A stretch of 36,326 nt of DNA from Gammaproteobacteria bacterium (GCA_023144715.1 JAGLFC010000020.1:1-36326), one strand, 5' to 3'; positions 15,551 to 36,326 are shown, counted from the first letter of the stretch. Translations and numbers: made by a program. The notes: a model not told the origin generated them from the letters alone.

Positions 15551-15561
15551 AAGGAATTAAA

Positions 15562-16224: not shown

Positions 16225-16275
16225 TACATTGAAAAATAAAATATTTTTTTAAATTTATGGGAATTTTTTAATATA

Positions 16276-18510: not shown

Positions 18511-18516
18511 AGTAAA

Positions 18517-19665: not shown

Positions 19666-19689
19666 TAGATGAAAAAAATACCTCTTTAT

Positions 19690-20595: not shown

Positions 20596-20627
20596 ATAAT
20601 TTTTTTCATCATTGTATATGGATTGAT

Positions 20628-21665
20628 TTAAAATTGAACCAGCTCTCGTAATACGGCGGTTGCATAAGTGCCACTCGGTAGTGAAAAAGATAAAGTGACT
20701 TGTGTGAGTGAATCATCTAAACATTGAATTGACATATTTTTAGGGATTAAGCGTATTGAGCGACGTTCTTGTTTTAACCCTTGTTTTTCAAGTCCAGCAC
20801 ACCATTGAGAAAGTGCCTTTGGTGCTTTTTCTAACGAGTTTTTACCCCATAAAGCAACTGTGGGATGAATATCACCTGTATTAAAACGTTGTTGCAGGTC
20901 ATCATTGATTTCAGGTGCATCAAATATTGAATGTGTTCCTGAAAGCATCATAATATCACCATTAAGTAATTTATCCCAGCCTATAGAAAGAATTCTTTGT
21001 GACAACATTTGATTAAAGACCATAGAACGTGCGGCAGAAAGGATAATACTTTTCTCAGCACGTTTTTTAATTTTTATATGACCATTAAACCAACGAGCTG
21101 CACGACTTAAATTATTATAATCATATCCAAAGCGTTGCTGTGCAAAGTAATTAGGGATACCTAATGATTGAATTTGATGGACTTTTTTAATGAGTTCATC
21201 CTGATTTGTTTGTTTAAGTTGTCGAAGAATAATATCAAATTGATTATATTTTATGGATCCTCTTTTTAATTTTCTACGATGCAACGTCTTTTTTAAAAGA
21301 GTCACACCTTCCACTTGAAAATTATCCCAATTAGGGGCTTCAATAATTTCTAAATTAATACTAAACCATTGTTCAGTAATCGCATGTCTATCTTTTAATC
21401 CTGCATAACCAATTTCTTTTACTTCAACGCCTACAAATTCTGCGAGTTTCCGTGCTAACCATTCTGTATTGGTATTGATCTTTTGAATATATAAATAGGC
21501 ATGTGTCCCTTCACCTTCTGGCTCAAAACTTAATACTTCTCGTACAATAAAATCACTATTTTGAGTTTTAAATTTTGCCTGAGCTTTTGGGGGTTCAAAG
21601 GCATAGGCTAACTCTTCTACTGTATGTATTGGGTAATTAGCTAAGTTATTATTAATGTCTGTCAT
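20628..21665 (-). CDS. truD: tRNA pseudouridine(13) synthase
   Basis: DFIVRE, GEGTH, GYAGLKDRHAITEQW, PNYFAQQRFG, LPSGTYATAVLREL. ATG 21665 has AGGA RBS (track start 21722). Confidence 0.95.
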   Translation of the reverse strand: MTDINNNLANYPIHTVEELAYAFEPPKAQAKFKTQNSDFIVREVLSFEPEGEGTHAYLYIQKINTNTEWLARKLAEFVGVEVKEIGYAGLKDRHAITEQWFSINLEIIEAPNWDNFQVEGVTLLKKTLHRRKLKRGSIKYNQFDIILRQLKQTNQDELIKKVHQIQSLGIPNYFAQQRFGYDYNNLSRAARWFNGHIKIKKRAEKSIILSAARSMVFNQMLSQRILSIGWDKLLNGDIMMLSGTHSIFDAPEINDDLQQRFNTGDIHPTVALWGKNSLEKAPKALSQWCAGLEKQGLKQERRSIRLIPKNMSIQCLDDSLTQVTLSFSLPSGTYATAVLRELVQF

Positions 21666-21839
21666 TGTTTTTCCTACTGTATATTGAGCGATAGTATAAT
21701 AGGATTTGGTCAGTTCTAACATAATTTACTTTTAAACAACTCAAATAAATTATAATTGTAAAAATGGATAGGATAAACAATAATTATATGTTTAGATCAC
21801 AATTAAATTCTCTCTTGTTTCAAAAAATGGTAAAAAAAT

Positions 21840-21995
21840 ATGACAATGATTTATCTTTATCTAATAGCTTTGTTTATAGTCTTTATTTATCTTGCCTATC
21901 GCTTGGTACTGAAAAGAAAACGTACTAAAGAGACGTATGAAGATCGTGAAGATGACGTTTTTTATGATGCTGCAAAAAATATTAGACGAGATTAG
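21840..21995 (+). CDS. small single-pass membrane protein (51 aa), not in ORF track
   Basis: MTMIYLYLIALFIVFIYLAYRLVLKRKRTKETYEDREDDVFYDAAKNIRRD*; one TM followed by KRKR; ends 15 bp before the MATE gene. Confidence 0.6.
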   Translation: MTMIYLYLIALFIVFIYLAYRLVLKRKRTKETYEDREDDVFYDAAKNIRRD

Positions 21996-22010
21996 TGCGA
22001 TGTTAATGTA

Positions 22011-23378
22011 TTGAAAAAACAACTTCTTTCATTATTAACAATGGCTCTCCCTATTTTTACAACGCAATTAAGTCAAATGGCAATGGGAGTAGTGGATACC
22101 GTGATGTCGGGTCATGCCAGTACGGTTGATTTAGCCGCGGTGGCAGTAGGATCAAGTCTTTGGATTCCACTGGTTTTTTTGATTGTGGGTATCTTAATGG
22201 CAATCACGCCTACTATTGCTCATTATTATGGAGCCAGTGATTATCATAAGATGGGTCACACCATTCGACAATCTTTATGGATTGGGCTGATTCTCAGCCT
22301 GTTGGGTGGTACAGTATTACTCTCTGCTCATCATTTATTTGTGTTTATGGATATTAAAGCACCTATTTTACCCATTGCGACTGATTATCTTTATGCAATT
22401 GCATGGGGAATGCCCGCGATTGCTGGATACCATATTTTACGCTATCTTAATGAAGGCATTGCCAATCTTATACCTATTATGCTGATTGGATTGCTGGGTC
22501 TATTGGTTAATATTTTATGTAATTATGCCTTAATTTTTGGTCATTTTGGCTTCCCCTCACTGGGTGGGGTAGGTGCGGGTTGGGCTACAGTGATCACTCA
22601 CTATTTTATGTTTTTATGCTTATTGATTTATGTTTATAAAAGTAAAAAATTTATTCCGATTCAACTTTTTCAAGCAGATTTAGCACCTCACTTTCAGGAA
22701 TTAAAGACCTTATTAAAACTTGGTCTGCCTATTGGTATTACTTTTTTTGTTGAAGGCAGTATTTTTTCTGTCATTTCTTTATTTTTAGCCTCAATGGGCG
22801 TTGTAACAGTAGCCTCTCACCAAATTGCATTAAGTTTTTCTTCTTTAATTTTTATTTTTCCTTTAAGTCTATCAATCAGTCTGACCATTCAAATAGGGCA
22901 TCAATGTGGTGCAAAACAATGGCAAATGATCAGTGATACGATCAAGGCAGGCTATTTAATCAGTTTTGGTATTTCTATTTTCTCAGCCTTTTTAATCACC
23001 CGATTTTCTACTGAAATTGCATCCTTGTATACGGATAATCATGAGGTCATTGATTTAGCCAGTCATTTAATGATTTTTACAGCCTTGTACCAATTTTCTG
23101 ATGGTATTCAACTGTGTTCAGCAGGTGCATTACGCGGTATGAAAGATACGACAATACCCATGTTATTATCAATTGTATCGTATTGGATCATTGGTTTTCC
23201 CTTAGGGTATACCTTAGCTTTAACGGATATAATAACTGATGCAATGGGAGCTAAGGGATTTTGGATTGGCTTATTATGTGGGCTGACTTTATCCGCTATA
23301 TTAATGACTCTTAGACTTTATGTTAAAAGAAAAAAATGGCTAAAGGGACTGGAGTGTCCAGCCCCTATTTTAAAATAA
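22011..23378 (+). CDS. norM: MATE-family efflux transporter (NorM-like)
   Basis: MGVVDTVMSG, DLAAVAVG, LGGVGAGWAT, LGLPIG, VASHQIA, YQFSDGIQ, GALRGMKDT; ~12 TM; TTG start. Confidence 0.9.
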   Translation: MKKQLLSLLTMALPIFTTQLSQMAMGVVDTVMSGHASTVDLAAVAVGSSLWIPLVFLIVGILMAITPTIAHYYGASDYHKMGHTIRQSLWIGLILSLLGGTVLLSAHHLFVFMDIKAPILPIATDYLYAIAWGMPAIAGYHILRYLNEGIANLIPIMLIGLLGLLVNILCNYALIFGHFGFPSLGGVGAGWATVITHYFMFLCLLIYVYKSKKFIPIQLFQADLAPHFQELKTLLKLGLPIGITFFVEGSIFSVISLFLASMGVVTVASHQIALSFSSLIFIFPLSLSISLTIQIGHQCGAKQWQMISDTIKAGYLISFGISIFSAFLITRFSTEIASLYTDNHEVIDLASHLMIFTALYQFSDGIQLCSAGALRGMKDTTIPMLLSIVSYWIIGFPLGYTLALTDIITDAMGAKGFWIGLLCGLTLSAILMTLRLYVKRKKWLKGLECPAPILK

Positions 23379-23396
23379 GGTGTCATATATTATATT

Positions 23397-25169
23397 TTAA
23401 GAGGCATTTTTAGGGTGCATGACTTGTTTTGATATCGATCTTGCTAATGAATAAATACGAGTTATTTTTTCCATGAGTGAAACTTCAAGACGTGCCATTT
23501 TCCAATAATCATCTTGTTCACCCCCCAAATGATTTGATTTTCTGGATAATATTTTATTTTCATAATGCTTAATTGTTCTTCTTTGATTAATAATGGTTTC
23601 TGCGACTTGCTGATCATTTTGACCAATCACCACGACACTGTCTTCAAGTGTGACACAAATGTCATGATAAAATTCAAGAAAAATTTCTTTTGTTAAATCA
23701 CTGACTTTATACTTATGATCAATAAAATATTGCAATATCTCAGCAATATCATTGCGTATAATAGAAGACTGATTTTGTAAATGAATGGTAGTAGACATCA
23801 TGGCTTGATGATCAAAACTTTCCTGTTCAGTCAGTTCTTCTCTTCGTAATTGGCTTAAATAACCTAATACTGCATCGGCAAGAATATTCACTTTTTCAAA
23901 CTTTAAAAAAATCTCTTTTAATTGTTTGCGATCTTGGTTGACGGTAGCCACTCGTATATTACTAAACATTTCACTATTGAGTTCCGCCATACGTGCTAAT
24001 TCAAGACGTACCTGACCTAATGCAAGACTGGGAGTATTTAAGGTATCCTCCATGATATATTTAGGTTCAATAAGAATACTGGTGTCCTTAGAAGGTTCTG
24101 GAGCAATAAAAACGGCTAATCGAGCAAACCAGCCTGTAAAACCAATGAATATAATGGTATTGATCACATTAAATAATGTATTGGCATTGGCTATTTGTCG
24201 GGGTACAGCACTGGCGAGGCTTTCTCCCTCTGCGACAGGTGATAAGGCGGTGGCAAATTCGGCTAATTGTGGTATAAAGAATAACCAGAGTAAAACGCCT
24301 AACACATTAAATAAGACATGAACAATGGCAGCACGTACTGCTTCAACAGGTTTGCCTATGGCGGCCATCATGGCAGTGACACAGGTGCCAATATTAGCCC
24401 CCATCGCAAGTGCAATGCCTGCGGGTAAACTTAATAAACCTTCACTTGCCATAGCAATAGCAATACCTACAGTGGCAGCAGATGATTGCACCAAGCCTGT
24501 AAAAATAGCCCCAGCAAGCACACCAATCATGGGTTTTTCCATGGACTTTAAAAATTCGATAAAAGGCTCAAAGGTGCGTAAAGGACCCATTGCATCACTC
24601 ATAAGTCCCATACCAAAAAAGACCAGTCCTAGCCCCATTAGCATCATGCCGTAATATTGAATTTTTTCACGTTTGGCAATAAAAGTCATAAAAAAGCCAA
24701 TAGCAATGGGTAATAAAGCATAGGCAGATAAATTAAAGGCGAGTAATTGAGCGGTCATAGTGCTACCAATATTGGCACCCATGATGACTCCAACGGATTG
24801 ACTCAGAGTCATAACACCCGCGGTAATAAAGCTAACCACTAACACGGTGGTCACAGAAGATGAATTCAAAATACCCGTGACAATAGCACCTGTGAGTGCA
24901 CCCATAAAACGATTGGTGGTGAGTTTGGATAATAATACTTTGAGCGTTTCACCCGCTGCTTTTTTTAAGCCATTGGAGAGCATATCAAGCCCTGCAAGAA
25001 AAAGTGCTAAACCACCAAAAAGTCCCATGCCTAATTGCAACCAATCAATAGAAGTCTGTTGAGAGGTATCAATCACTGCTGGAGCAGCTGAAAGTGTGGT
25101 TGCACCTATAAATAATGCAATTAATAGCATAAAACCAATTATTTTATGTGTGGGTATCATAGTCAACAT
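23397..25169 (-). CDS. Na/Pi cotransporter family protein with C-terminal PhoU-like domain
   Basis: GGLALFL, NSSSVTT...MGANIGST and QSSAAT...MGANIGTC repeats, RQIANANTLFN; helical soluble C-terminus. Confidence 0.92.
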   Translation of the reverse strand: MLTMIPTHKIIGFMLLIALFIGATTLSAAPAVIDTSQQTSIDWLQLGMGLFGGLALFLAGLDMLSNGLKKAAGETLKVLLSKLTTNRFMGALTGAIVTGILNSSSVTTVLVVSFITAGVMTLSQSVGVIMGANIGSTMTAQLLAFNLSAYALLPIAIGFFMTFIAKREKIQYYGMMLMGLGLVFFGMGLMSDAMGPLRTFEPFIEFLKSMEKPMIGVLAGAIFTGLVQSSAATVGIAIAMASEGLLSLPAGIALAMGANIGTCVTAMMAAIGKPVEAVRAAIVHVLFNVLGVLLWLFFIPQLAEFATALSPVAEGESLASAVPRQIANANTLFNVINTIIFIGFTGWFARLAVFIAPEPSKDTSILIEPKYIMEDTLNTPSLALGQVRLELARMAELNSEMFSNIRVATVNQDRKQLKEIFLKFEKVNILADAVLGYLSQLRREELTEQESFDHQAMMSTTIHLQNQSSIIRNDIAEILQYFIDHKYKVSDLTKEIFLEFYHDICVTLEDSVVVIGQNDQQVAETIINQRRTIKHYENKILSRKSNHLGGEQDDYWKMARLEVSLMEKITRIYSLARSISKQVMHPKNAS

Positions 25170-25374
25170 GCCTTATGTAATATTTTATATGCTATAAAAT
25201 ATATTAGTATAATTAGGATTAAAAGTTTATCATATTATTAGGTAAAATAAATTAAGGGTAAACCTTAATAGAACTTATGAACAAAAATGATACAATTAAA
25301 AAAAATAAATTGATAATTAGAATATTAATAAATATTAATATTATGATTACAAATAACAATTAAAAAGGTATTTA

Positions 25375-26520
25375 ATGATGTTAAGGCGTTTAAGCGACTT
25401 TTTTGTTTTAACGGTGACTTTTGGGCTATTATTTGCCGGGCAAGCGTTTGCTAGTGAAATTATTGATGTAGGAACACATAAAGATGTAGAGCAAATTTAT
25501 CTTGGTGGTAGTGTTATTCCTTATAAAGAGGTAACACTCTCTGCACAAATGCCAGGACGTATTGAATTTGTTGCTGGAGAAGAGGGTGATTCTTTTGAAA
25601 CAGGTGTTTTATTGTTAACCATGAGTGACGAAAGTTTATTGGCAAAACGTAAATCTGCTATGGCTCAATATGATCAAGCAATGGCAGGATTACAAAACTC
25701 TCAAGTGCAATATAATAGAGAATTATGGTCACCACAATCAGAAAATGCCACGCAAATGCCTGGTATGGGACTCCCCGGAATGTTTGATCAGATGTTTACC
25801 AAACAGATGAGCGACTCTATGGGCTATGGTGATACAGATGTACAGCGTCGTGCGGATCTTTATAATCAAGGTTCGGCCGTTAATCAGGCTAAAACTAACG
25901 TAAGAAGTGCACGTGAAGCCATTAATGAAATAGATGCTATGCTTCGTGATACTCGTTCAATTGCACCTTTTAAAGGAATGATCATCAAGAAGTTTATCGA
26001 AGTAGGTGATACCGTTCAACCGGGAATGCCCTTATTGTCTTTTGCCAATACTGATTATATAAAAATTCGTACCGAAGTACCTGTACGTCTTATACCGTAT
26101 TTAAAAGTAGGCGATACTGTTCAAGCATACCTTGATGTGAGTGGTATGATGATTCCAGCAAAAGTGACTCAAATTTATCCTTTAGCCGATAAAAGTAAAC
26201 ATACAGTGACGGTAAAATTTGATTTACCTATTGGCACAACAGGCGTGCCGGGTATGTATGCTGAAGTGGCTATTCCTGTTAAAAATTCCAAACCCAGCAC
26301 CTCTATTATTATCCCTCAAACAAGCATTCTTAAACATTTGGGCAGTTTACCCAGTGTTTTAGTGATGAATAATCAAGGTATGGCAGAAATGCACGTGATA
26401 CGCTTAGGTAAAAAAGTGGATGGTGGTAAGTCTTATGTGGTACTTTCAGGGCTAAAATCAGGTGATAAAATTGTTAACCATCCGCCAAAAAACTGGCGAC
26501 CTGGTTTAAAATTAAAATAG
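25375..26520 (+). CDS. RND efflux periplasmic adaptor (membrane fusion protein)
   Basis: N-terminal signal, lipoyl halves (SAQMPGRI...EGD; IAPFKGMI...VGDTVQPG), IYPLAD, PGMYAEV, VLSGLKSGDKIV. Confidence 0.9.
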   Translation: MMLRRLSDFFVLTVTFGLLFAGQAFASEIIDVGTHKDVEQIYLGGSVIPYKEVTLSAQMPGRIEFVAGEEGDSFETGVLLLTMSDESLLAKRKSAMAQYDQAMAGLQNSQVQYNRELWSPQSENATQMPGMGLPGMFDQMFTKQMSDSMGYGDTDVQRRADLYNQGSAVNQAKTNVRSAREAINEIDAMLRDTRSIAPFKGMIIKKFIEVGDTVQPGMPLLSFANTDYIKIRTEVPVRLIPYLKVGDTVQAYLDVSGMMIPAKVTQIYPLADKSKHTVTVKFDLPIGTTGVPGMYAEVAIPVKNSKPSTSIIIPQTSILKHLGSLPSVLVMNNQGMAEMHVIRLGKKVDGGKSYVVLSGLKSGDKIVNHPPKNWRPGLKLK

Positions 26521-26621
26521 TGTACTCAGTGGCTTGTCATACGATTTATATGAACTCATTGATATAAATCGCTACAATCTAAATTAAGAAATAATGAATC
26601 AGTACGAGTAATAGTAAATCT

Positions 26622-29600
26622 ATGGATACTTCAGATAATAAACATGGTTTGGGTCTTGCGGGTAATTTAACGAAGACCTTTATGCATTCACCATTAACAT
26701 TGTTGCTTATTATAGCAACCTTTGCTATTGGTTTTGCTGGCTTTATGATGACACCAAGGCAGGAAGATCCTCAAATATCAGTGCCAATGGTGGATGTTTT
26801 TGTGAATTATCCTGGAGCATCAGCCAAGCAAGTTGCTTCTCTTGTTACCGATCCACTCGAACGGATTATGAGTGAAATTCCTGGTGTTGACCATGTTTAT
26901 TCTGCTTCACAGCGTGATCAAGCGGTTGTGACGGTGCAGTTTGAAGTGGGCGAGGAAATGGGCGAATCATTGGTTAAATTGTATGATAAATTACAATCCA
27001 ATATGGACAAAATTCCACCGGGCGTATCACCACCGTTAGTAAAACCCAAGGGAGTGGATGATGTGCCTATGGTTGCATTAACACTTTGGTCAGATAGTCT
27101 TGATGATGCGGCATTACGTTTAATTGGTCTTGATGTCATGCAAGAACTTAATGAAATTCCAGAAACTAGCCAAAGCTTTGTGATCAGTGGTCGTCAAGAA
27201 CAACTTAGAATTGAAGTTAAGCCCGAACGATTGGCTGGCTATGGTATCACTATGGCACAAATAGCTGGTACCATTATGACGGCCAATAGTGAAAAAACAG
27301 TGGGTTCAATTGAATCAGGTGAAAGTAGCTTTAATCTTTATACAGGTTCTTTTTTACATACCGCAGAAGATGTTGAACATCTAGTGGTGGCAATACATGA
27401 TGGAAATCCTGTTTATATTAGAGATATTGCTAAAGTGATTCATGGTCCTGGAGAAACCCACAAATTTGTTAATTTCTATACAGGTGCTGCCTCAACAGAA
27501 AGTAAGGCGGCTAATGGTGTGCCAGCAGTCACACTCGCTTTGGCTAAAAAGAGCGGTACCAATGGTATCAGTGTCGTTGAAGAAATTTTAAAACGTGTTG
27601 AATCAATGAAGGGTCGTCTGATTCCTAGTAATGTTGAAGTAAGCGTAACACGTAATTATGGTAAATCAGCACAAGATAAAGTCAATGGTTTAATGTTTAA
27701 GCTGGTATTAGTCACCGTTGCCGTCTCTATTCTTATTCTTGGATTTTTAAATTGGCGTGCTGCTTTAGTCTGTTTTATTGTGATTCCTAATGTTATTTTA
27801 GTGACCACCTTCTTTGCATTAATGATGGGCTATACCATTGACCGAGTGAGCTTATTTGCCTTAATCTTTTCTATTGGTATATTGGTAGATGATGCCATTG
27901 TGGTGGTCGAAAATATGTATCGGCGTTGGGCAATGGATGGTGAAATTTCAGATGCAACCTCCATTGATGCGGTAAGAGAAGTCGGAAATCCGACCATTCT
28001 TGCGACCTTTACAGTCATTGCTGCTTTATTACCTATGGCAATTGTACGAGGTATGATGGGACCTTATATGGAACCTATCCCAGCACTGGGTTCAGTCGCG
28101 ATGATGTATTCCTTGTTCGCAGCCTTTGCTTTTACACCATACTTAGCCATTCGTTTTAAACCCAGTATGGATTCTTTGAATAAAATGGAAGAATCTGAAC
28201 ATAATACTGTTCGGTTATTAGATGGTTTTTATCGTTCTATTTTAAATCCTCTTATTGATAGCAAATTTGCGGGCAACACCTTTTTAATCTCTTTATTTGT
28301 GGTCTTCTTTTTATGTTGTAGCTTACTTTATGTGAAAGCAGTTAAAGTAAAAATGATGCCCTTAGATAATAAATCTGTTTTTAATGTGGTGGTTAACTTT
28401 CCTGCGGGCACTTCACTGCCTGTAACCGCTAATTTAACGCGCCAATTTGCTGAAGAAGTGAGAAAAATTTCTGAAGTCACCGCTATTCAATCTTATGTGG
28501 GTACTGCTTCTCCTTATGATTTTAATGGTTTAGTACGTCACTATTACTTGCGTCAACAGCCTTGGCAATCGGATTTGAATGTACAGTTAGTGGATAAAAA
28601 AGAACGTGATCGGAGCAGTCATGAAGTGGCTGTAGAAGTCAGAAATACCTTAACCGCAATGGTGGCTGCAAAAGTTAAAGAAGGGACTTACACCGAAAAT
28701 AGTAAACCCAAGTTTCAAATTGTAGAAATGCCACCAGGTCCCCCTGTGCTACAAACAATGGTTGCTGAAGTGTATGGACCGACTGCACATGAACGTCATG
28801 CGGTTGCTATGCGATTAACCGAATTATTTGAACAATCTGAAATTATTACGGATGTGGACAATTATATTCAAAAACCTTATGAAATATGGACATTTCAAGT
28901 CAATCGTGAAAAATCAATTCGTACGGGTGTTACCGTTGATGCCATTAATAAGGCATTAGAAATGGCGATGGGTGGCTTTGTTTTGGGTGATATTAAAGAT
29001 GGTTCAATATTAGATCCCACCATGATTATATTACAAGTTCCCCTTGATATTCGTGCTAATTTTAACTCATTAAGCCAATTACCTGTGCCTACTATGCAAG
29101 GAACGAGTGTACCTTTGGCAGAATTAGGTCTATTTAGTAAAGGCTATAAAGAAGCCATTATTTTCCATAAAGATTTAAGAGATGTTGAATATGTGATTGG
29201 TGAGGTTCAAGGCAAATTAGCATCCCCTATTTATGCCATTCTTGAAGTGAATAAATTTCTTCAAAAAGAAGAAAACTTAGGGCCTCGAAAGGAGATCATA
29301 GAAGGGACTCTCACTGGACCTCCTGATGCTGGAGATATGCATAATTTTTCAGGCTTTGAGTGGGCAGGTGAATGGATTGTCACTTATGAAACCTTTCGTG
29401 ATATGGGACTGGCATTTGGTGTCGCTATTATTTTAATTTATATGCTGGTTGTGTGGGAATTTGGTAATTTTAGTTTGCCCGCAGTGATTATTTCACCCAT
29501 TCCACTGACATTAATTGGTATTTTACCGGGTCATGCTTTAATGGGTGCAGAATTTACCGCCACTTCTATGATTGGTTTCATTGCATTGGCGGGTATTATT

Positions 29601-30467
29601 GTGCGGAATTCCATCTTGTTAGTGGACTATTCACGACAGGAAATTAGTCGAGGCGTTGAAATTAAGGAAGCCATTATTATGGCCTGTATTACTCGCACAA
29701 GACCTATTATTATTACCGCTTTGGCGTTAGTGGTGGGATCAACCGCTATTTTGATGGATCCTATTTTTCAAGGCATGGCTGTATCACTCATGTTTGGTGT
29801 GTTTGTATCCACTATTTTAACATTGATTGTAATTCCTCTAGGTTGTTATAGTGCACGTAGTGCGTTTTGTGATGTGATGCGTGAAGATCATCCTGATTAT
29901 GAATTATGTATCGCAGAAAAAGAAGGAAAAAAAAAAGATAATTTAAAAGAAAAAGACACTGGTTTTATCGTACAAGGATTGTTCAGTGTCTATAATGTTA
30001 TTATCGCTGTCTTTCAGGTTGTATGGTGGAGTTTACAAGGGCTTTATAGGTTACTATTTAAGCAAAAAAAAACTAAAACGACACCTAAGCCCATAGCAGT
30101 TTCTGATCAAAGTATTTCAAAAAAAGAAACGCCCAGAGAACCAGAATCTGAGTCGGATCATATAGAAGATATTTCAGAATCTAAGAAAGAAGAAAAAGAA
30201 GTGCAACCTGAACCTGTAGTAGAAAATGATATTTCTGATACTGATCAGGTTGAAAAAAATTCTGTTGTAGAGAAAACAACCCCTATTAAGAAAAAATCTT
30301 CTGTTAAAAAGAAAACTCTAACAAAGAAAAAAGCCATAAAAAAGAAAGCTTCTACTCGAAAAAAATCATCGACAACCGCTTCTAAACCTTCTTCAACAAC
30401 AAAAAAATCTGTTAAAAAGAAGGGACGGCGTGGTATACAATTAAAAGGTGATTTAGGGAAAGAATAA
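26622..30467 (+). CDS. RND efflux permease (AcrB/AcrD/AcrF family) with long C-terminal extension
   Basis: TPRQEDPQI, GILVDDAIVVVEN (TM4), GIIVRNSILLVD (TM10), RTRPIIIT (TM11); ~200 extra aa after the last canonical TM. Confidence 0.93.
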   Translation: MDTSDNKHGLGLAGNLTKTFMHSPLTLLLIIATFAIGFAGFMMTPRQEDPQISVPMVDVFVNYPGASAKQVASLVTDPLERIMSEIPGVDHVYSASQRDQAVVTVQFEVGEEMGESLVKLYDKLQSNMDKIPPGVSPPLVKPKGVDDVPMVALTLWSDSLDDAALRLIGLDVMQELNEIPETSQSFVISGRQEQLRIEVKPERLAGYGITMAQIAGTIMTANSEKTVGSIESGESSFNLYTGSFLHTAEDVEHLVVAIHDGNPVYIRDIAKVIHGPGETHKFVNFYTGAASTESKAANGVPAVTLALAKKSGTNGISVVEEILKRVESMKGRLIPSNVEVSVTRNYGKSAQDKVNGLMFKLVLVTVAVSILILGFLNWRAALVCFIVIPNVILVTTFFALMMGYTIDRVSLFALIFSIGILVDDAIVVVENMYRRWAMDGEISDATSIDAVREVGNPTILATFTVIAALLPMAIVRGMMGPYMEPIPALGSVAMMYSLFAAFAFTPYLAIRFKPSMDSLNKMEESEHNTVRLLDGFYRSILNPLIDSKFAGNTFLISLFVVFFLCCSLLYVKAVKVKMMPLDNKSVFNVVVNFPAGTSLPVTANLTRQFAEEVRKISEVTAIQSYVGTASPYDFNGLVRHYYLRQQPWQSDLNVQLVDKKERDRSSHEVAVEVRNTLTAMVAAKVKEGTYTENSKPKFQIVEMPPGPPVLQTMVAEVYGPTAHERHAVAMRLTELFEQSEIITDVDNYIQKPYEIWTFQVNREKSIRTGVTVDAINKALEMAMGGFVLGDIKDGSILDPTMIILQVPLDIRANFNSLSQLPVPTMQGTSVPLAELGLFSKGYKEAIIFHKDLRDVEYVIGEVQGKLASPIYAILEVNKFLQKEENLGPRKEIIEGTLTGPPDAGDMHNFSGFEWAGEWIVTYETFRDMGLAFGVAIILIYMLVVWEFGNFSLPAVIISPIPLTLIGILPGHALMGAEFTATSMIGFIALAGIIVRNSILLVDYSRQEISRGVEIKEAIIMACITRTRPIIITALALVVGSTAILMDPIFQGMAVSLMFGVFVSTILTLIVIPLGCYSARSAFCDVMREDHPDYELCIAEKEGKKKDNLKEKDTGFIVQGLFSVYNVIIAVFQVVWWSLQGLYRLLFKQKKTKTTPKPIAVSDQSISKKETPREPESESDHIEDISESKKEEKEVQPEPVVENDISDTDQVEKNSVVEKTTPIKKKSSVKKKTLTKKKAIKKKASTRKKSSTTASKPSSTTKKSVKKKGRRGIQLKGDLGKE

Positions 30468-30566
30468 ATACATGTTATGATAGTTCAAAGACATTTGCAC
30501 CAAAAGTTATATTTTGATTGTTTTATCAGCAAATATTAAATTGAGTTTGGCTATAGGGTATTCTAT

Positions 30567-31196
30567 ATGATTACAGTGATTGGTAATTTAAAAGGTGGTA
30601 CTGGAAAAAGTACAGTGACATTTAATTTGGCCGTCTGGCTGGCATTAAATGATTATTGCGTTAAGGTCTTTGATTTAGATCCACAAGCAACACTCAGTGA
30701 TGTGGGCGATATTCGTAAAGAAGATGAATATGAACCTATTATTTCTATTAGCAATTCGCTGGATGATTTGGATTTATCTAAACAGTCTAAAGAGGATGAA
30801 ATACTGATTGATATTGGCACCGCGGATACTCAATCAATGAAAAAAGCCATTGCTTTAACCAATCGTATTATTGTTCCTGTACCACCTAGTCAGGCTGATA
30901 TTTGGTCAACACAACGCTTTATAAAAATGGTCGTTGATATTTGTGGTAAGGATAATATGCCACAGATGTTAGGCTTTGTTAATCGTGCTGATACTCATAA
31001 GGGAGTACGTGAGACAGGAGAAGCAGAAGATGCACTCAAAATACTCCCCTATATTGATTTAATAGGTACACGCTTATATCAAAGAACAACCTATAGGCGT
31101 TCTTTTAGTGAAGGTCTTGCGGTGTTTGAACTTGAACCCAAAGGCAAAGCAGCAGCAGAAGTGAATAAGTTTGCCAGTATGATTTACCCAGCATAA
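30567..31196 (+). CDS. small ParA/MinD-family ATPase
   Basis: Deviant Walker A KGGTGKST, DLDPQ, Walker B ILID, IIVPVPPSQADIW, FVNR; 209 aa with no N-terminal HTH. Confidence 0.92.
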   Translation: MITVIGNLKGGTGKSTVTFNLAVWLALNDYCVKVFDLDPQATLSDVGDIRKEDEYEPIISISNSLDDLDLSKQSKEDEILIDIGTADTQSMKKAIALTNRIIVPVPPSQADIWSTQRFIKMVVDICGKDNMPQMLGFVNRADTHKGVRETGEAEDALKILPYIDLIGTRLYQRTTYRRSFSEGLAVFELEPKGKAAAEVNKFASMIYPA

Positions 31197-31198
31197 AA

Positions 31199-31226
31199 TA
31201 GCTTATTAGTGTATTCTAATAAGCTA
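31199..31226. repeat. perfect 11-bp inverted repeat (operator or mRNA hairpin)
   Basis: TAGCTTATTAG-TGTATT-CTAATAAGCTA right after the ParA-like stop; no T-tract downstream on the + strand. Confidence 0.7.
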
Positions 31227-31328
31227 AAAATAAAGCTACCTATGACTATTATTTTCTTTTATAATAATACAAGAACACTATTATATTAATGACCTGTTAA
31301 TGTGATTAATGCTTGGGAGAGACAATAA

Positions 31329-31934
31329 ATGCCGATTAAAAGGTTATATCATAAACTGACTGCCGAAACTGTACCAGCAGATGCCGCGGGTTTTGATTCA
31401 GATACACTAGACAAGCGTAAAAAAGAGGTTGATGTTAAAGGTCAACGTTTACAACTTATTGTTTATTCAGCATTATTTGCATTTATTATCTTAGCAGCTT
31501 ATGGGTATTATCTTATTTTTAATCTTACTCATGATGTTCATTCAATGTCTAATGATGTCAGGCAGATGAGTCAGGCAGTGAGTGGTATGTCACACTCAGT
31601 TATTATGAATATGGATGTTATTTCAGAAAGTATTGTGAAAATGCAATCCAGCACCCAATTAATGAGTCGTGTGGTCGCAGATTCTCTGCCTGAAATGACT
31701 AAAAATACGACTATCATGACGCAAACTGCTCAAAATGTGAATGCTCGCATTAATGATATTAGTGCGGATATTCAGATCATGAGTGTCAGTATGGTTGCCA
31801 TGCAACGTGATATGTGGAGTATGAATGATACTTTTAGCAATCCAGTAGAAAGTATTTTTCATAATATGATGCCTTGGAGTAATAAAAAACAAGGTTCATC
31901 GGGTCCTTTATATTTTAGGCAACCCATGCGTTAA
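31329..31934 (+). CDS. membrane-anchored Met-rich coiled-coil protein
   Basis: GGGAGA RBS; one TM (LIVYSALFAFIILAAYGYYLIF); Met recurring at heptad spacing; 18 Met in 201 aa. Confidence 0.85.
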   Translation: MPIKRLYHKLTAETVPADAAGFDSDTLDKRKKEVDVKGQRLQLIVYSALFAFIILAAYGYYLIFNLTHDVHSMSNDVRQMSQAVSGMSHSVIMNMDVISESIVKMQSSTQLMSRVVADSLPEMTKNTTIMTQTAQNVNARINDISADIQIMSVSMVAMQRDMWSMNDTFSNPVESIFHNMMPWSNKKQGSSGPLYFRQPMR

Positions 31935-31984
31935 AATGATTGTTTTTTAATGTTTAATTATTTGTTTAGGAGAGGGTATCACCC

Positions 31985-33466
31985 ATGTTTGAAAGTCCGA
32001 CTACACTGCTTCAGTCACGTTTAAAGAGTTTGAAAGAAAACCTTGCCACTGAAAATCCTATTTTAGTGGATGCCGTTAACTCTTTTCAAGATTTAGATAA
32101 AGTGGGTTATGAAACAGGTCTGTTAGCAACTGATGAATCTTTTGCGACTAAAATTTCATGGTGGCCCTTAATTTCAATTTTAGGGACTTTCTCAGCAGGA
32201 AAGTCTTCGTTTATTAATAGCTATTTAGGTGTCAATCTACAGTTAACAGGTAATCAAGCGGTTGATGATAAATTTACAGTCATCACTTATAGTCAGGAAG
32301 AAAAACCCCGAGTATTGCCAGGTTTAGCACTGGATGCCGATCCACGTTTACCTTTTTATCAAATCAGTGAAGCCATAGAAAAAGTTTCTACAGGAGAGGG
32401 CAGTCGAGTTGATACTTATTTACAACTTAAAACCTGTAAAAGTGATGCACTAAAAGGTAGAATTTTAATTGATTCCCCTGGATTTGATGCGGATGATCAA
32501 CGTAATGCAACGCTTAGAATTACCGATCATATTATTGATTTAGCGGATTTAGTGATGGTCTTTTTTGATGCTCGACATCCAGAACCTGGTGCGATGAAAG
32601 ATACTCTACAACATTTGGTTGAAGGGACGATCAAACGTAATGATACCAGTAAATTCTTATTTATTTTAAATCAAATGGATACTACGGCTAAGGAAGATAA
32701 TTCTGAGCAAGTGGTGGCCGCATGGCAACGTGCTATTGTACAAACAGGACTGTCAGCAGGTCGTTTTTATTGTATTTATAATGAAAAAACAGCGCCTATT
32801 ATTGAAGATGAACAAATGCGCAAGCGTTATAAAGAAAAGCTTGATTTTGATATGAGTGAAATCAATCAACGTATGCAGGAAGTAGGTGTTGAACGAGTGT
32901 ATCGTATTATTGGTGCTTTAGAAAATACAGCTAATGGTATAGAACGTGTTGCAATACCAAAAATAACAAAAGCATTAGACTCATGGTCTCGTACGGTATT
33001 AAAAATTGATGCAGTATTATTGGGCTTATTAATTGCTATCCTATTGGGTATTTCATATTATGCTAATTATTGGATTGACGGTTCATTCCAACCATTTTGG
33101 CTAGAATCTTTTTCAGATAATCCGATTCTACAAAGTATTGTTTTAGGTGTTTTTGTGCTGATATTAACAATACTACATTTTAAAGTACGTCGTTTTATGG
33201 CTCATAAAATTGCTAAAAAATTACCCACTGAAAATGGACCAGGTAATATTGCAGGTGCTTTTCTAAAGAGTACACATCCTATACGCAGTATTTTTATGTC
33301 TACACCCTCAGGTTGGCGTAAAAAAAGTCGCCAAGTGATTGAGCAAGTACGTAATCAGGCAGACAATTTTGTAAAATTACTGAATGATAATTTTACTGAT
33401 CCATTAGGGCGTAGAGAAGCTGAAGGTTTAATAGAAAAAAAGAAGGCGGATGTTGCGAAATCATAA
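31985..33466 (+). CDS. dynamin-like (EHD-type) P-loop NTPase with two TM segments
   Basis: G1 GTFSAGKS, G3 IDSPG, G4-like LNQMD, DDKFTVI, ADLVMVFFDA; helical stalk and two hydrophobic helices. Confidence 0.85.
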   Translation: MFESPTTLLQSRLKSLKENLATENPILVDAVNSFQDLDKVGYETGLLATDESFATKISWWPLISILGTFSAGKSSFINSYLGVNLQLTGNQAVDDKFTVITYSQEEKPRVLPGLALDADPRLPFYQISEAIEKVSTGEGSRVDTYLQLKTCKSDALKGRILIDSPGFDADDQRNATLRITDHIIDLADLVMVFFDARHPEPGAMKDTLQHLVEGTIKRNDTSKFLFILNQMDTTAKEDNSEQVVAAWQRAIVQTGLSAGRFYCIYNEKTAPIIEDEQMRKRYKEKLDFDMSEINQRMQEVGVERVYRIIGALENTANGIERVAIPKITKALDSWSRTVLKIDAVLLGLLIAILLGISYYANYWIDGSFQPFWLESFSDNPILQSIVLGVFVLILTILHFKVRRFMAHKIAKKLPTENGPGNIAGAFLKSTHPIRSIFMSTPSGWRKKSRQVIEQVRNQADNFVKLLNDNFTDPLGRREAEGLIEKKKADVAKS

Positions 33467-33521
33467 TGAAGGAATGTTATTCTTTATCGTCAGTAAAGGT
33501 TCTATCTAGGAACAAATATTT

Positions 33522-33905
33522 ATGAACTTTGAAAAAGTATCTTTTGCTTTTTTTGTTGTGTTTGCTCTGACCATTAATTTTGGTTTTTTCATTGGTGACA
33601 TTGATGAACCAAAACACCATCATGTCTTTGAATTATTTCTTGCCATCATCATTAGTTTAATTGCCACTGTTATTAAACTTGGTGATCGATCACACATTGG
33701 TGCAGTATTATTAGCAACCAGTTTAGTTGCAGATATTCATCTTATTGCCGCGGCTATTATTTGGGGCTTTGCTGAACATATTTCAGCAAGTGGTGTAGGC
33801 CCAGATGTCATGGCAACCATTGTTTCAGTATCAGGGGGTGCTTTGATTGCCAACTTGACATCTGTGGTATTATTAGTCATTGAAACGACTGTTGTTCGAC
33901 GTTAA
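33522..33905 (+). CDS. small integral membrane protein (resembles DUF6394 family)
   Basis: About four TM helices; MNFEKVSFAFF, NFGFFIG, KLGDR, LLATSLVADIHL; family recalled, not searched. Confidence 0.75.
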   Translation: MNFEKVSFAFFVVFALTINFGFFIGDIDEPKHHHVFELFLAIIISLIATVIKLGDRSHIGAVLLATSLVADIHLIAAAIIWGFAEHISASGVGPDVMATIVSVSGGALIANLTSVVLLVIETTVVRR

Positions 33906-33960
33906 CTTTAAACTATTTTATCCTCTCTTTTATGAGACAAGATAATTTACTGACAGACTA

Positions 33961-35865
33961 ATGAATAGTTTTATTTTTATATTGCTCAAACGAATAAGAT
34001 TACCCATAATATTGCTTATTTCTAGCTATGCAATTGTTATTTTGGGGTTTGTACTGATACCCGGTCAGGATGATCAGGGCAATGTTTGGCAGATGAGTTT
34101 TTTTCATGCTTTTTATTTTGTCAGTTTTATGGGTTCTACAATAGGTTTTGGAGAAATCCCCTATGAATTTACAGATGCTCAGAGAATGTGGACAATTTTT
34201 GCAATTTATACAACAGTCACTATTTGGCTGTATAGTATTGGTGCCATTCTTAATGCTTTACAAAATCCTGTTTTAAAAAAAATTCTAAGAGAGAATGATT
34301 TTAAAAAAAAAGTACAGGGCATTAAAGAACCTTTTTATCTTATTTGTGGTTATGGTGATACAGGAGAATTATTAGCACACGAACTCTCGGCTAATAATAT
34401 TTTATCCGTGGTACTGGATATTGAACAGGAACGCATTGATAACCTACAAATAGATGAACCCGATATTGATATTCCAGCATTAGCCGCTAATGCTGCCTAT
34501 CCTGATGTCTTAGAAAGTGCAGGTTTAACTCATGCCTACTGCAAAGGTGTTATTGCTTTAACCAATAAAGATTCAGTTAATCTAAAAATTGCCATCACAG
34601 CACGTTTACTCAATAAAAAACGTCTTTTAGAACATGATTTAATGGTTATTTGTCGTGCACAAAGTGTAGAAGTAGAAGTGAATATGGCTTCCTTCGGTAC
34701 ATCACATATTATTAATCCTTATGATATTTATGCCAGACGCTTGGCTTTATCTGTGCGTTCACCCAGTGCCTACCTAATTTACGAATGGTTGACCAATCCT
34801 TACCATAAAGTAAGAAAAGAACCCATAAAACCCCCTAGAGGCACTTGGGTGGTCTGTGGTTATGGGCGTTTTGGTAAAGCAATTTCAAGACATTTGAATT
34901 ATGTGGGTATCAAAACAATTATTATTGAAGCAAAGCCAGACTTAACGCAAGCTCCAGAAGGAACAATAGCAGGAAAAGGCACGGAATCCGTGACATTAAG
35001 AGAGGCAAAAATTACAGATGCTGTTGCTATTGTTGCAGGTACTGACAATGATGCGAATAATCTTTCTATTGTGATTAGTGCTCAAGATGAAATGAGTCGT
35101 TATTATAAAGGACAAAGGAGAGAACAAGAATATTATGATAAATATTATTCAAATACAGAAGGTGACAGCCAAGAAGAAATCAGTAACCATCATTATCATA
35201 AAAAATTATTTTCAATTGCTAGACAAAATTTTGGACGCAATAAAAAAGTGTTTGAAAAAGCTGAACTGGACTTTATTATGCAACCTGCCAGTATTGTGGC
35301 AGGAGAAATTCTTTCTATTATAAAAACACCTCTTATGTCTACCTTTTTATCCTTAGCAAGAAGGCAAAAAGATAAGTGGGCAAATATTTTAATCAGTCGT
35401 ATTAGTAGTTTTATTGATAATAGTGCAACGACATGGATGTTAGAAATTTCAGAGAAACAAACACCTGCTTTAATGAGTTTTTTACAAAGTAGTCACATTA
35501 CGATCAAACATATTAGTAGTGATCCTGATAATAGAGAAAATTTATTGGATTGCGTTGTTTTATTAGTGCATCGTAAAAAAATATCACCATTAGGTGAGCG
35601 TAAAGGTATATTGAATGTTGATGAACCCATTAAACATATTAATTTTTTACTGCCTAATGATGAATTTGAAATTAAAAAAGGGGATCAATTGCTGATTTGT
35701 GGTGATATAATCAGCAAGCAAATGATGTGCCGTGTTGTTAATAGTCATAAGGATTATAATTATATTCATACAGGGTGTGAATTGGGAGGTAGTTATTTTT
35801 GGCAATGGCTATATAAGAAAAACTATCTTACTAAAGAGAATGTAAATAATGTTCAAAAAGAATAA
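33961..35865 (+). CDS. 2-TM potassium channel protein with tandem TrkA-N/RCK domains
   Basis: Pore helix and filter AFYFVSFMGSTIGFGEIP; two Rossmann motifs ICGYGDTG and VCGYGRFG; ALTNKDSVNL, AGTDNDANNL. Confidence 0.9.
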   Translation: MNSFIFILLKRIRLPIILLISSYAIVILGFVLIPGQDDQGNVWQMSFFHAFYFVSFMGSTIGFGEIPYEFTDAQRMWTIFAIYTTVTIWLYSIGAILNALQNPVLKKILRENDFKKKVQGIKEPFYLICGYGDTGELLAHELSANNILSVVLDIEQERIDNLQIDEPDIDIPALAANAAYPDVLESAGLTHAYCKGVIALTNKDSVNLKIAITARLLNKKRLLEHDLMVICRAQSVEVEVNMASFGTSHIINPYDIYARRLALSVRSPSAYLIYEWLTNPYHKVRKEPIKPPRGTWVVCGYGRFGKAISRHLNYVGIKTIIIEAKPDLTQAPEGTIAGKGTESVTLREAKITDAVAIVAGTDNDANNLSIVISAQDEMSRYYKGQRREQEYYDKYYSNTEGDSQEEISNHHYHKKLFSIARQNFGRNKKVFEKAELDFIMQPASIVAGEILSIIKTPLMSTFLSLARRQKDKWANILISRISSFIDNSATTWMLEISEKQTPALMSFLQSSHITIKHISSDPDNRENLLDCVVLLVHRKKISPLGERKGILNVDEPIKHINFLLPNDEFEIKKGDQLLICGDIISKQMMCRVVNSHKDYNYIHTGCELGGSYFWQWLYKKNYLTKENVNNVQKE

Positions 35866-35872
35866 TAAAAAT

Positions 35873-36326
35873 ATGCAATTGACTGATAAAGGATTATATA
35901 TGTTATTGCTTATTTTCAATTGTTTATTACTAGAAGTAACCTATGCAAGAGGGCATTATATATTTCCAGATGAAATTGATCAGTCTTCTAACACATTTCA
36001 ATATAATCAAGCCTCTTCAATTCAAAAAAAGCACTGGAATTACCCTCAATATGTTACAGATTTAACAACTGAAAATTCTGTTGATAATAAGCAACCCCCT
36101 TTATACAACAATAATTTTCGTGATCAATATCGTTATCCTAAAGAAAATAATATGAAAAATAAACTCTTTAGATTTTCACAGCCTATTTATCCTAGTGATT
36201 TAGAAACGAGTAACCATACTATTAAACCCATAAGATACAAGGATAAAAATTATAATCTATCAGAGGATACAATCGATCATTTACCTTATCATATCCCTAA
36301 TGCTCCAAAAATAATAAAACATCCCA
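35873..36326 (+). CDS. exported low-complexity hypothetical protein (truncated by window end)
   Basis: Frame open from ATG 35873 (alternative ATG 35900 with AAGGA RBS) to the end; signal-like LLLIFNCLLLEVTYA|RG, then Tyr/Asn/Pro/Gln-rich. Confidence 0.65.
   Translation, partial: MQLTDKGLYMLLLIFNCLLLEVTYARGHYIFPDEIDQSSNTFQYNQASSIQKKHWNYPQYVTDLTTENSVDNKQPPLYNNNFRDQYRYPKENNMKNKLFRFSQPIYPSDLETSNHTIKPIRYKDKNYNLSEDTIDHLPYHIPNAPKIIKHP

What the first reader, a model, noticed from the sequence alone, without database searches (positions are those of the whole stretch)
25375..36326. Candidate undescribed system: RND exporter + ParA + Met coiled coil + dynamin-like NTPase + K+ channel
Seen: eight consecutive + strand genes with gaps of about 7-135 bp and no T-tailed terminator noticed between them. 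They encode an adaptor, a tailed RND permease, a small ParA, a TM-anchored Met-heptad protein, a TM-anchored dynamin-like protein, a ~4-TM protein, an RCK K+ channel and an exported low-complexity protein. There is no TolC, ParB or local regulator. Knowledge: orphan ParA/MinD ATPases position protein cargo (McdA, ParC, PpfA), and bacterial dynamins remodel membranes. I know of no characterised system combining these with RND export. Inference: a machine that builds and spaces membrane-associated export sites or periplasmic inclusions. My unverified recollection of similar genes in sulfur-oxidising gammaproteobacteria suggests sulfur-globule biogenesis as one hypothesis; envelope-stress repair is another.
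Basis: partly seen in the sequence, partly recalled or inferred. Interest (0 to 1): 0.82.

Follow-up and report, generated by a model that had tools for sequence, protein, structure and literature searches.

The report
Sulfur-bacteria pump–ParA–dynamin cluster
Five of these eight neighbouring genes form a cluster kept together in many sulfur-oxidising bacteria, in which a membrane pump likely uses a short tail peptide to grip a positioning ATPase and so would help build and space the cell's sulfur-storage globules, while the potassium-channel genes are a lineage-specific neighbour.

Summary
All eight ORFs are real, but they are two modules.

Core: adaptor, RND, ParA, Met coiled coil and an EHD-like dynamin. 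Its ParA is in 48 of 330 class genomes (34 families) and in Magnetococcales. All 48 are sulfur oxidisers (44 dsrA, 4 soxB); none of 33 soxC-only genomes has it. Relatives often carry sulfur-globule (Pfam SGP) genes between pump and ParA. This copy has lost them, though homologues lie elsewhere in the genome.

Add-on: DUF6394, K+ channel and ORF8 follow the dynamin in 19 of 20 own-family genomes (the channel pair) but in 0 of 45 outside loci.

The pump ends in RRGI[RQK]LK. It is present in 45 of 45 assessable ParA-bearing genomes and absent in 6 of 7 cluster genomes lacking ParA (four separate tree positions). ParA–tail complex prediction gave weak support (0.59, best control 0.33).

Best reading (0.45): a TolC-less sulfur-globule building and spacing machine. 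Against: 58 of 102 dsrA genomes lack the ParA, and published expression data are mixed. No description was found in the papers searched. The scan found this cluster before on other DNA.

The parts
25375..26520 (+). Periplasmic adaptor (MFP), 381 aa, with an N-terminal hydrophobic signal-like segment. CORE.
   Evidence: TIGR01730 150 bits over cut-off 94.9; model folds like AcrA/MexA/MacA
25729..25833 (+). About 35-residue conserved Met/Phe-rich insertion at the tip of the adaptor hairpin (aa 119-153), where ordinary adaptors are recalled to contact TolC.
   Evidence: Helices 86-118 and 154-192 flank a low-pLDDT insert; P120 and G130 invariant, P134/F137/D138/F141/T142 at least 90% in 32 adaptors
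26622..30467 (+). RND permease, 1281 aa: 12 TM with proton-relay-type motifs, then an amphipathic segment and an acidic-then-Lys-rich tail. CORE.
   Evidence: ACR_tran 477 bits; nearest solved chain MexK, E 4e-61; GILVDDAIVVVEN and GIIVRNSILL conserved; TM scan
30426..30446 (+). Terminal peptide RRGIQLK of the pump tail (family consensus RRGI[RQK]LK); candidate ParA-activating peptide.
   Evidence: G and I invariant, R/R/L/K 84-92 of 93; lost together with ParA in four tree positions; weak complex prediction
30567..31196 (+). Short ParF/McdA-type ParA ATPase, 209 aa, with deviant Walker A KGGTGKST and no ParB nearby. CORE.
   Evidence: K9, G10, G11, G13, K14, S15, T16, D38 invariant in 40; best PDB hit ParF TP228, E 1.4e-15
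31199..31226 (.). 11-bp AT-rich hairpin after ParA, U-tailed only on the - strand; it lies where relatives have a TM-TPR gene.
   Evidence: region z -2.67, 2 of 200 shuffles; TPR gene position in relatives
31329..31934 (+). Single-TM, Met-rich coiled-coil protein, 201 aa, with a conserved TM and a C-terminal N..P...(F)MPW-type motif. CORE.
   Evidence: TM aa 40-64; Met 9.5% median in 104 homologues vs 2.5% in genome ORFs; only generic coiled-coil PDB hits
31985..33466 (+). EHD-like dynamin-family NTPase, 493 aa, with a TM hairpin (aa 335-394). CORE, but also found without the cluster.
   Evidence: Dynamin_N 57.8 bits; EHD4 is the only PDB sequence hit and the top fold hit, E 2e-12; pLDDT 84
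33522..33905 (+). DUF6394 four-TM protein, partner gene of the K+ channel. ADD-ON.
   Evidence: PF19931 118.8 bits; followed by the channel in 20 of 20 loci elsewhere
33961..35865 (+). Two-TM K+ channel with filter TIGFG (aa 60-64) and two RCK domains, 634 aa. ADD-ON.
   Evidence: Ion_trans_2 and TrkA_N x2; filter
35873..36326 (+). ORF8: signal-peptide-like N-terminus and N/P/Y-rich body, cut by the contig end; 300-400 aa in relatives. ADD-ON, seen only in own family.
   Evidence: No Pfam hit; matches own-family HMM at E 2.7e-8; that HMM hits only own-family loci

Best explanation
The adaptor, RND pump, ParA, Met coiled-coil and EHD-like dynamin genes form a cluster conserved in sulfur-oxidising bacteria that likely builds and spaces periplasmic sulfur globules, with the K+ channel pair as a family-specific neighbour. 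Shown: gene order, distribution, motif conservation, folds, and co-loss of tail motif and ParA. Inferred step 1: a proton-driven RND with a capped adaptor and no local TolC delivers a hydrophobic cargo (lipid, or organic polysulfane/S0) into the periplasm rather than outside; relatives add an SCP2-like cytoplasmic carrier and a DUF4412 periplasmic protein. Inferred step 2: Sgp-type coat proteins condense around that site, with the Met-rich coiled coil as a membrane-anchored stalk. Inferred step 3: the EHD-like NTPase bends the inner membrane into the invagination that holds the globule. Inferred step 4: the pump's basic terminal peptide stimulates the ParA dimer on the nucleoid, as McdB does for McdA, so these sites are distributed along the cell and inherited.
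For: Distribution: ParA orthologue in 48 of 330 class genomes; 44 of them carry dsrA against 58 of the other 282; the other 4 and G000 have soxB over cut-off; 0 of 33 soxC+/dsrA- genomes carry it. The pump subfamily (at least 1000 bits) is in 47 of the 48.
Sgp link: an Sgp-type gene lies between pump and ParA in 12 of 32 class loci and 30 of 49 named-collection loci; of 18 candidates scanned, 14 reach the Pfam SGP cut-off. G000 has three full Sgp-like homologues, the SCP2-like gene and DUF302 on other contigs.
No OMF: none among 46 candidate ORFs of 380-620 aa flanking pumps in 141 loci; conserved adaptor-tip insertion.
Tail motif: present in 45 of 45 assessable ParA-bearing genomes and in 1 of 7 cluster-type genomes without the ParA; the six motif-less pumps need four separate changes on the tree.
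Complex prediction: ParA dimer + ATP/Mg + tail scored 0.59, best control 0.33, 'weak support'. The mark was reached by 116 of 157 solved and 2 of 215 mismatched pairs, but at 0.60 or under by only 18 solved and by both mismatches; runs agree in at least 49% of contacts; partner pLDDT at least 46.
Known ParA partners use a positively charged disordered terminus (PMC10241942 passages).
Riftia symbiont: putative orthologues, assigned by accession order and size only, are detected as proteins; the 1364-aa pump falls from small to large cells in S-rich hosts as SgpB does.
Against: 58 of 102 dsrA genomes lack the ParA and 48 lack the pump subfamily, so the cluster is not needed for all sulfur storage; SUP05 forms periplasmic globules and is reported to lack dynamin (PMC6509183 passages). 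The window's copy has no Sgp gene inside. The dynamin occurs in 21 of 231 ParA-negative genomes, 13 of them without dsrA, and is unlinked in 5 of 5 Magnetococcales genomes checked. G231 keeps the motif with no ParA found. Putative A. vinosum orthologues (Alvin_1759-1764, annotation order only) change little on S0 vs sulfide (0.34-1.10-fold) while sgpB and sgpC drop to 0.05-0.06, and its sgpA/B/C genes lie elsewhere. In the Riftia data the pump is flat in S-depleted hosts, the ParA trend is not significant and the putative dynamin rises where Sgp falls. The complex score is weak, may reflect likeness to solved ParA/MinD-peptide complexes, and a basic peptide could dock non-specifically. Kin are not independent, so the 2x2 tables overstate. 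Several carriers are labelled Ectothiorhodospiraceae, a family described as depositing sulfur outside the cell. No substrate evidence exists.
Confidence: 0.45

Rival explanations
1. The core is a ParA-positioned lipid or hydrophobe trafficking and membrane-remodelling system of sulfur oxidisers (SCP2-like carrier, RND, LolA-like DUF4412 protein, dynamin) that serves the envelope or periplasmic sulfur enzymes; Sgp genes sit in it by shared regulation, not because it builds globules.
For: An SCP2-like gene precedes the adaptor in 36 of 80 named loci and 8 of 46 class loci (fold assignment). A DUF4412-like gene lies between pump and ParA in 40 of 49 and 15 of 32 loci, more often than Sgp. Tail-less paralogue pumps sit beside flavocytochrome c sulfide dehydrogenase in 3 of 14 loci. 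Little co-regulation with sgpB/C.
Against: Sgp genes and other secreted Gly/Tyr/Pro-rich ORFs fill the pump-ParA interval in many families; a general envelope role does not explain absence from 33 of 33 soxC-only genomes and 191 of 195 genomes with neither marker. The DUF4412 hits are weak (21-24 bits) and gave no PDB match.
Confidence: 0.27
2. The pump is an ordinary tripartite efflux system that borrows a TolC encoded elsewhere and exports polysulfide, S0 or another toxic product; ParA merely localises it.
For: G000 has OMF genes on four contigs; the nearest solved relatives are MexK/TriC-type efflux pumps; proton-relay motifs are intact; some carriers are labelled as a family with extracellular sulfur.
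Against: No OMF gene beside pumps in 141 loci; the adaptor tip carries a conserved 35-residue insertion; efflux does not explain the Sgp, Met-coil and dynamin neighbours.
Confidence: 0.13
3. All eight genes, K+ channel included, are one machine, as the first reader proposed (for example turgor or ion control coupled to inclusion growth).
For: Same strand, 7-55 bp gaps, adjacency in 19 of 20 own-family genomes; DUF6394 is enriched in ParA carriers, 34 of 48 vs 42 of 281.
Against: 0 of 23 class and 0 of 22 named loci with room carry it after the dynamin; in complete or long assemblies it lies far away, e.g. G067 at 27 kb vs 1,587 kb; 14 ParA carriers have no DUF6394 match.
Confidence: 0.05
4. 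The link to sulfur is phylogenetic hitch-hiking: an ancestral envelope operon inherited by lineages that happen to oxidise sulfur.
For: Kin are not independent; many dsrA genomes lack it; no phylogenetically corrected test was run.
Against: Carriers span 34 families plus Magnetococcales; only 4 of 195 genomes without dsrA/soxC carry it and all four have soxB; Sgp genes are physically inside the cluster.
Confidence: 0.1

Closest known systems
McdA-McdB carboxysome positioning and ParF-ParG (TP228); ParA/MinD cargo systems
   Same: Short ParA with signature lysine and C-terminal arginines, no ParB; ParF is the best PDB hit. The candidate partner is a basic, disordered terminal peptide, as described for known partners (PMC10241942 and PMC11407121 passages).
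   Different: The candidate peptide is at the C-terminus of an integral RND pump, not at the N-terminus of a soluble adaptor. The cargo would be a membrane or periplasmic site. A carboxysome-locus ParA in G298 scored only 84 bits on the family profile against 205 or more for sister ParAs.
Tripartite HAE1-type RND efflux pumps (MexJK, TriABC, AcrAB-TolC)
   Same: Adaptor plus 12-TM permease with DD in TM4 and a basic residue in TM10.
   Different: No OMF gene in the locus family, an adaptor-tip insertion, a 170-375-residue tail (in the examples printed) with a terminal motif, and NCBIfam drug- and metal-pump models far below cut-off.
EHD ATPases and their bacterial TM-anchored homologues (Schäffer et al. 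2020, PMC7016017)
   Same: Dynamin-family domain followed by a TM pair, exactly as that paper describes for the closest bacterial homologues (passages); EHD4 is the top sequence and fold match.
   Different: No EH domain; the passages read give no gene neighbourhood or function; nucleotide preference untested.
Sulfur globule proteins SgpA/B/C/D of Allochromatium vinosum (Pfam PF17228)
   Same: Secreted Gly/Tyr-rich proteins inside relatives' clusters reach the SGP cut-off.
   Different: Only coat proteins are described (PMC10386293 introduction and passages); no pump, ParA or dynamin is linked to globules there. The window's cluster has no Sgp gene.
RCK-gated two-TM K+ channels (MthK/GsuK type, names recalled) with DUF6394
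   Same: TIGFG filter and two RCK domains.
   Different: Always preceded by DUF6394 in the loci examined (20 of 20); no paper holds the term DUF6394.

Membership tests
ParA/MinD cargo-positioning system (McdAB-like) | Deviant Walker A with signature lysine and catalytic aspartate | tested here: met
   K9, GGxGKST and D38 invariant in 40 sequences
ParA/MinD cargo-positioning system (McdAB-like) | Basic C-terminal surface for non-specific DNA binding (or a membrane-targeting helix) | tested here: inconclusive
   R173 and R177 invariant, R178 and K194 at least 90%; protein is net acidic, 24 K+R vs 30 D+E; DNA binding not measured
ParA/MinD cargo-positioning system (McdAB-like) | Partner with a basic disordered terminus that binds and stimulates the ATPase | tested here: inconclusive
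   Co-loss of tail motif and ParA; prediction weak, 0.59 vs best control 0.33; stimulation not testable
McdAB proper | McdB gene and carboxysome locus next to the ATPase | tested here: not met
   Neighbours are pump, TPR, DUF302, Met and dynamin genes in the 126 loci labelled with cluster HMMs; no McdB or shell-protein profile was run
ParABS / type Ib partition | Adjacent ParB or ParG gene and centromere | tested here: not met
   No such gene in the window; gene after ParA is TPR 71, Met 26, DUF302 7, dynamin 1, other 16
Tripartite RND efflux pump | 12-TM permease with proton-relay residues plus an adaptor | tested here: met
Tripartite RND efflux pump | Outer-membrane factor partner | tested here: inconclusive
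   None beside pumps in 141 loci; OMFs exist elsewhere in G000; adaptor tip altered
Tripartite RND efflux pump | Export of substrate to the medium | not testable with these tools
   Needs a transport assay
Bacterial EHD-like dynamins with C-terminal TM pair | G1/G3/G4 motifs, EHD-like fold and a TM pair after the NTPase domain | tested here: met
   G67-S74, D163-G166 and N229-D232 conserved; fold; TM 335-362 and 376-394
Bacterial EHD-like dynamins with C-terminal TM pair | Membrane remodelling activity | not testable with these tools
   Needs a liposome assay
Sulfur globule protein (PF17228) | SGP match for a gene of the window's cluster | tested here: not met
   No window ORF matches. Relatives' in-cluster genes do. 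G000's homologues are 39-62% identical to those over aligned parts but did not reach E 0.001 themselves

The most novel reading that the evidence does not exclude
A dedicated biogenesis-and-inheritance machine for sulfur globules: a TolC-less RND pump that doubles as the ParA adaptor through its C-terminal RRGIxLK peptide, so that a nucleoid-based ParA gradient positions a periplasmic organelle across the inner membrane, with an EHD-like dynamin shaping its membrane pocket.
Probability: 0.3. Interest if true: 0.9.

Novelty: categorically new. Interest (0 to 1): 0.72.

Why it matters
In the paper on sulfur globules that I read in part, only coat proteins are named, and nothing on how globules are nucleated or placed. 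This cluster gives concrete genes to test and a seven-residue handle: mutate RRGIxLK or delete ParA and watch globule spacing. If right, it adds a periplasmic inclusion to the cargo list of ParA/MinD ATPases, shows an RND transporter acting as a ParA partner through a C-terminal peptide, and gives a context to the unstudied bacterial relatives of eukaryotic EHD proteins. The window adds a reduced natural variant (no Sgp, DUF4412, TPR or DUF302 gene inside) that points to a five-gene core.

Tried and rejected
K+ channel/DUF6394/ORF8 as core parts: rejected. Upstream Na/Pi cotransporter and MATE genes: rejected, since relatives mostly have a proS-like gene there (name recalled from sequence). 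Met protein as sole ParA partner: not favoured; it follows ParA directly in 26 loci but is retained in 5 of 6 loci that lost ParA, the sixth ending at a contig edge; not modelled. Extra hydrophobic segment after TM12 as a true 13th TM: not favoured, as 23 of 77 motif-bearing tails lack it. ORF8 homology to secreted proteins inside other clusters: no hit. Met protein family search: only generic coiled coils. DUF4412-like profile against PDB: no hit. Rfam over 19000-36326: nothing. Expression of the window itself: no RNA holder listed; DNA contigs cover the stretch but one run may be its source. The IQ-TREE pump tree did not finish; FastTree was used. The original A. vinosum transcriptome and proteome papers are not held. 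Literature searches without a description of the cluster: dynamin+ParA+RND+sulfur-oxidizing 0 papers; sulfur globule protein+dynamin 1 paper, unrelated, 1 paper, listing only; sulfur globule+RND transporter+upregulated 0; DUF6394 0; listings showed none. Subscription journals are mostly outside this library.
Full report
1. What is in the window. Pfam and NCBIfam give adaptor, RND permease, ParA-like ATPase, no family, Dynamin_N, DUF6394, K+ channel with two RCK domains, and no family. The window is a whole contig of a 64%-complete, 35% GC genome, so ORF8 is cut and absences in this genome prove nothing. DNA contigs from two runs of one study cover the stretch; one may be its source.

2. Two modules, not one. 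The dynamin matched 23 of 24 own-family genomes, and their loci repeat adaptor-RND-(Sgp)-ParA-(TPR)-Met-dynamin-DUF6394-channel-ORF8. In 330 class genomes of at least 90% completeness the ParA matched 48 at E 1e-40 or better, all at 178 bits or more, in 34 families. This count is a floor: a profile found a diverged in-cluster ParA in G045 and sister ParAs in G128 and G309. Around the 46 outside-family hits, the pump was present in 28 of 32 loci with 8 kb upstream; Met, dynamin and TPR were in 22, 22 and 23 of 36 loci with 5 kb downstream; DUF6394 or channel in 0. Eighty named loci (best 80 of at least 579) gave pump 43 of 50, Met 42, TPR 32, dynamin 22 and channel 0 of 55. At least four of these repeat contigs of the class set, so the two sets are not independent. 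They include Thiomargarita, Sedimenticola, Thiohalorhabdus and many Magnetococcales, where ParA-Met stay adjacent and the dynamin lies elsewhere. DUF6394 matched 76 of 329 class genomes, was followed by the channel in 20 of 20 loci examined, and lies away from the ParA outside the own family. It follows the dynamin in 19 of 20 own-family genomes with room. The channel pair and ORF8 are therefore a family-level neighbour.

3. Link to sulfur. dsrA matched 102 of 330 genomes: 44 of 48 ParA carriers and 58 of 282 others (the Fisher p of 1e-21 overstates, since kin are not independent). The four dsrA-negative carriers and G000 all have soxB over cut-off. None of 33 soxC+/dsrA- genomes has the ParA, and 4 of 195 with neither marker do, namely those four. 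The pump subfamily at 1000 bits or more is in 59 genomes, 54 with dsrA. The pump-ParA interval holds secreted Gly/Tyr/Pro-rich ORFs; my Sgp HMM labels one in 12 of 32 and 30 of 49 loci, and 14 of 18 hand-picked candidates reach the Pfam SGP cut-off. The window has a 99-bp gap there; G000 keeps three full Sgp-like homologues, an SCP2-like gene beside a rhodanese, and DUF302 on other contigs. The dynamin is less specific: 32 of 38 ParA carriers and 21 of 231 others, 13 of those without dsrA (taking the 270 as the first 270 of the same draw).

4. The pump. It has 12 TM and proton-relay-type motifs and MexK as nearest solved chain. No OMF was found among 46 candidate ORFs of 380-620 aa near pumps in 141 loci, although G000 has OMFs elsewhere. 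The adaptor folds like AcrA, but its hairpin tip carries about 35 conserved extra residues; that this hinders TolC docking is inference from recalled structures. Relatives add an SCP2-like gene upstream and a DUF4412-like periplasmic gene (weak hits; its LolA-like fold is recalled). This suggests, without showing, transfer of a hydrophobic cargo into the periplasm. A cysteine just after TM12 is kept in 103 of 111 subfamily pumps and in none of 4 outgroup pumps.

5. The tail peptide and ParA. The lead came from an earlier scan note and was tested here. The tail ends in RRGI[RQK]LK, with G and I invariant in 93 tails. Among the 48 ParA carriers, 41 have the motif, 1 has it in a frame-shifted next ORF, 5 are cut by contig ends and 1 has no pump hit. 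G045, G128 and G309 add three with motif and a diverged or sister ParA. Of seven cluster-type genomes with no such ParA, six lack the motif in all frames (G298, G161, G033, G224, G185, G329; best profile scores 87 bits or less) and one keeps it (G231). On a FastTree tree of 73 pump cores, tails excluded, the six need four changes, forced by well-supported branches. Fourteen stand-alone paralogue pumps also lack the motif. The tail is likely cytoplasmic, since 23 of 77 motif-bearing tails have no further hydrophobic segment. Folding a ParA dimer with ATP, Mg and the last 39 residues scored 0.59 against a best control of 0.33, verdict weak support. The mark was reached by 116 of 157 solved and 2 of 215 mismatched pairs, but at 0.60 or under by 18 solved and both mismatches; runs agree in at least 49% of contacts; partner pLDDT at least 46; the counts hold only roughly, and likeness to solved ParA/MinD-peptide complexes may contribute. 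Described partners act through a basic disordered N-terminus (PMC10241942 and PMC11407121, passages); the second paper's main text has no 'sulfur', 'RND' or 'dynamin'.

6. Dynamin and Met protein. The dynamin model (pLDDT 84) matches EHD4 best by fold and by profile and has a TM pair, matching the bacterial EHD relatives noted in PMC7016017 (passages). The Met protein has one conserved TM and a Met-rich coiled coil with no family; its role as a stalk is speculation.

7. Published expression, orthology unverified by sequence. In A. vinosum, Alvin_1764 (MFP), 1763 (RND), two hypotheticals and 1760 (ParA-type annotation) follow the cluster's order (supplement rows of PMC11267869). They change 0.34- to 1.10-fold on S0 relative to sulfide, while sgpB and sgpC fall to 0.05 and 0.06 and sgpA is 1.11: no clear co-regulation. 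In the Riftia symbiont proteome (supplement rows of PMC7787665), a 1364-aa RND (abundance rank 223), its MFP, a 224-aa ParA-type protein and the next gene (rank 98) are detected. The RND falls 4571 to 2840 from small to large cells in S-rich hosts, as SgpB does, but is flat in S-depleted hosts; the putative dynamin rises. This shows likely expression and is mixed on function. Supplements of the original A. vinosum studies, which I could not see, may bear on this.

8. Verdict. A real, widely conserved five-gene core restricted to sulfur oxidisers in this sample, with a specific and testable ParA-pump link, plus an unrelated channel module. Sulfur-globule building and spacing is the most likely function (0.45), lipid or envelope trafficking the main rival (0.27). 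It fails or leaves open membership of McdAB, ParABS and tripartite efflux, while working in part like McdAB. No description was found in the searches named. Of PMC10386293 I read the abstract, introduction and passages; of PMC6509183, passages. Earlier scan notes reported the same cluster in other genomes; they are not counted as support.

Noticed in passing
L029:16109-18714, L041:3-1099, L042:14738-17198: In three own-family genomes ORF8 is followed directly by APS reductase genes (AprB by Pfam; AprA by position and FAD domain); G021 has only remnants there. What follows ORF8 in G000 is beyond the contig end.
   Followed up: partly
L251, L252, L256: Tail-less paralogues of the pump sit next to flavocytochrome c sulfide dehydrogenase genes in 3 of 14 loci, so the pump subfamily itself may be sulfur-linked.
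   Followed up: partly
window 31329-31934 homologues, e.g. L162, L168, L175, L103: The cytoplasmic N-terminus of the Met protein carries a CxxC in 19 of 104 homologues (many Magnetococcales) and some Cys in 54; the window's copy has none.
   Followed up: no
window RND aa 1075 (about 29844): Cys right after TM12 is conserved in 103 of 111 subfamily pumps and absent from outgroup pumps; H91, H640 and H667 are also near-invariant.
   Followed up: no
L274, L275: A sister ParA subfamily (205-219 bits on the cluster profile) occurs away from the cluster in G309 and G128, whose pumps keep the tail motif.
   Followed up: partly
L271 (G097:C3), also G234:C385 and G339:C163: More distant RND pumps with about 1440-aa open frames; in L271 the extra length is not at the C-terminus, so it may be an N-terminal fusion.
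   Followed up: no
window 8816-10780: A tyrosine recombinase/integrase (419 aa) and a 196-aa ORF with no Pfam match lie between mgsA and a polysaccharide gene block.
   Followed up: no
window 12570-14153: DegT-family aminotransferase with an extra N-terminal part giving a weak PIN_3 match (E 3e-4, below cut-off), within a sugar-biosynthesis cluster at 10916-19665.
   Followed up: no
L030:12373-16320: In G017 the DUF6394-channel module is interrupted by transposase-like ORFs (names recalled from sequence) and the channel is in pieces, while the five-gene core is intact.
   Followed up: no
L176: A record titled as an archaeal MAG carries the full cluster; possibly a labelling or binning error.
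   Followed up: no
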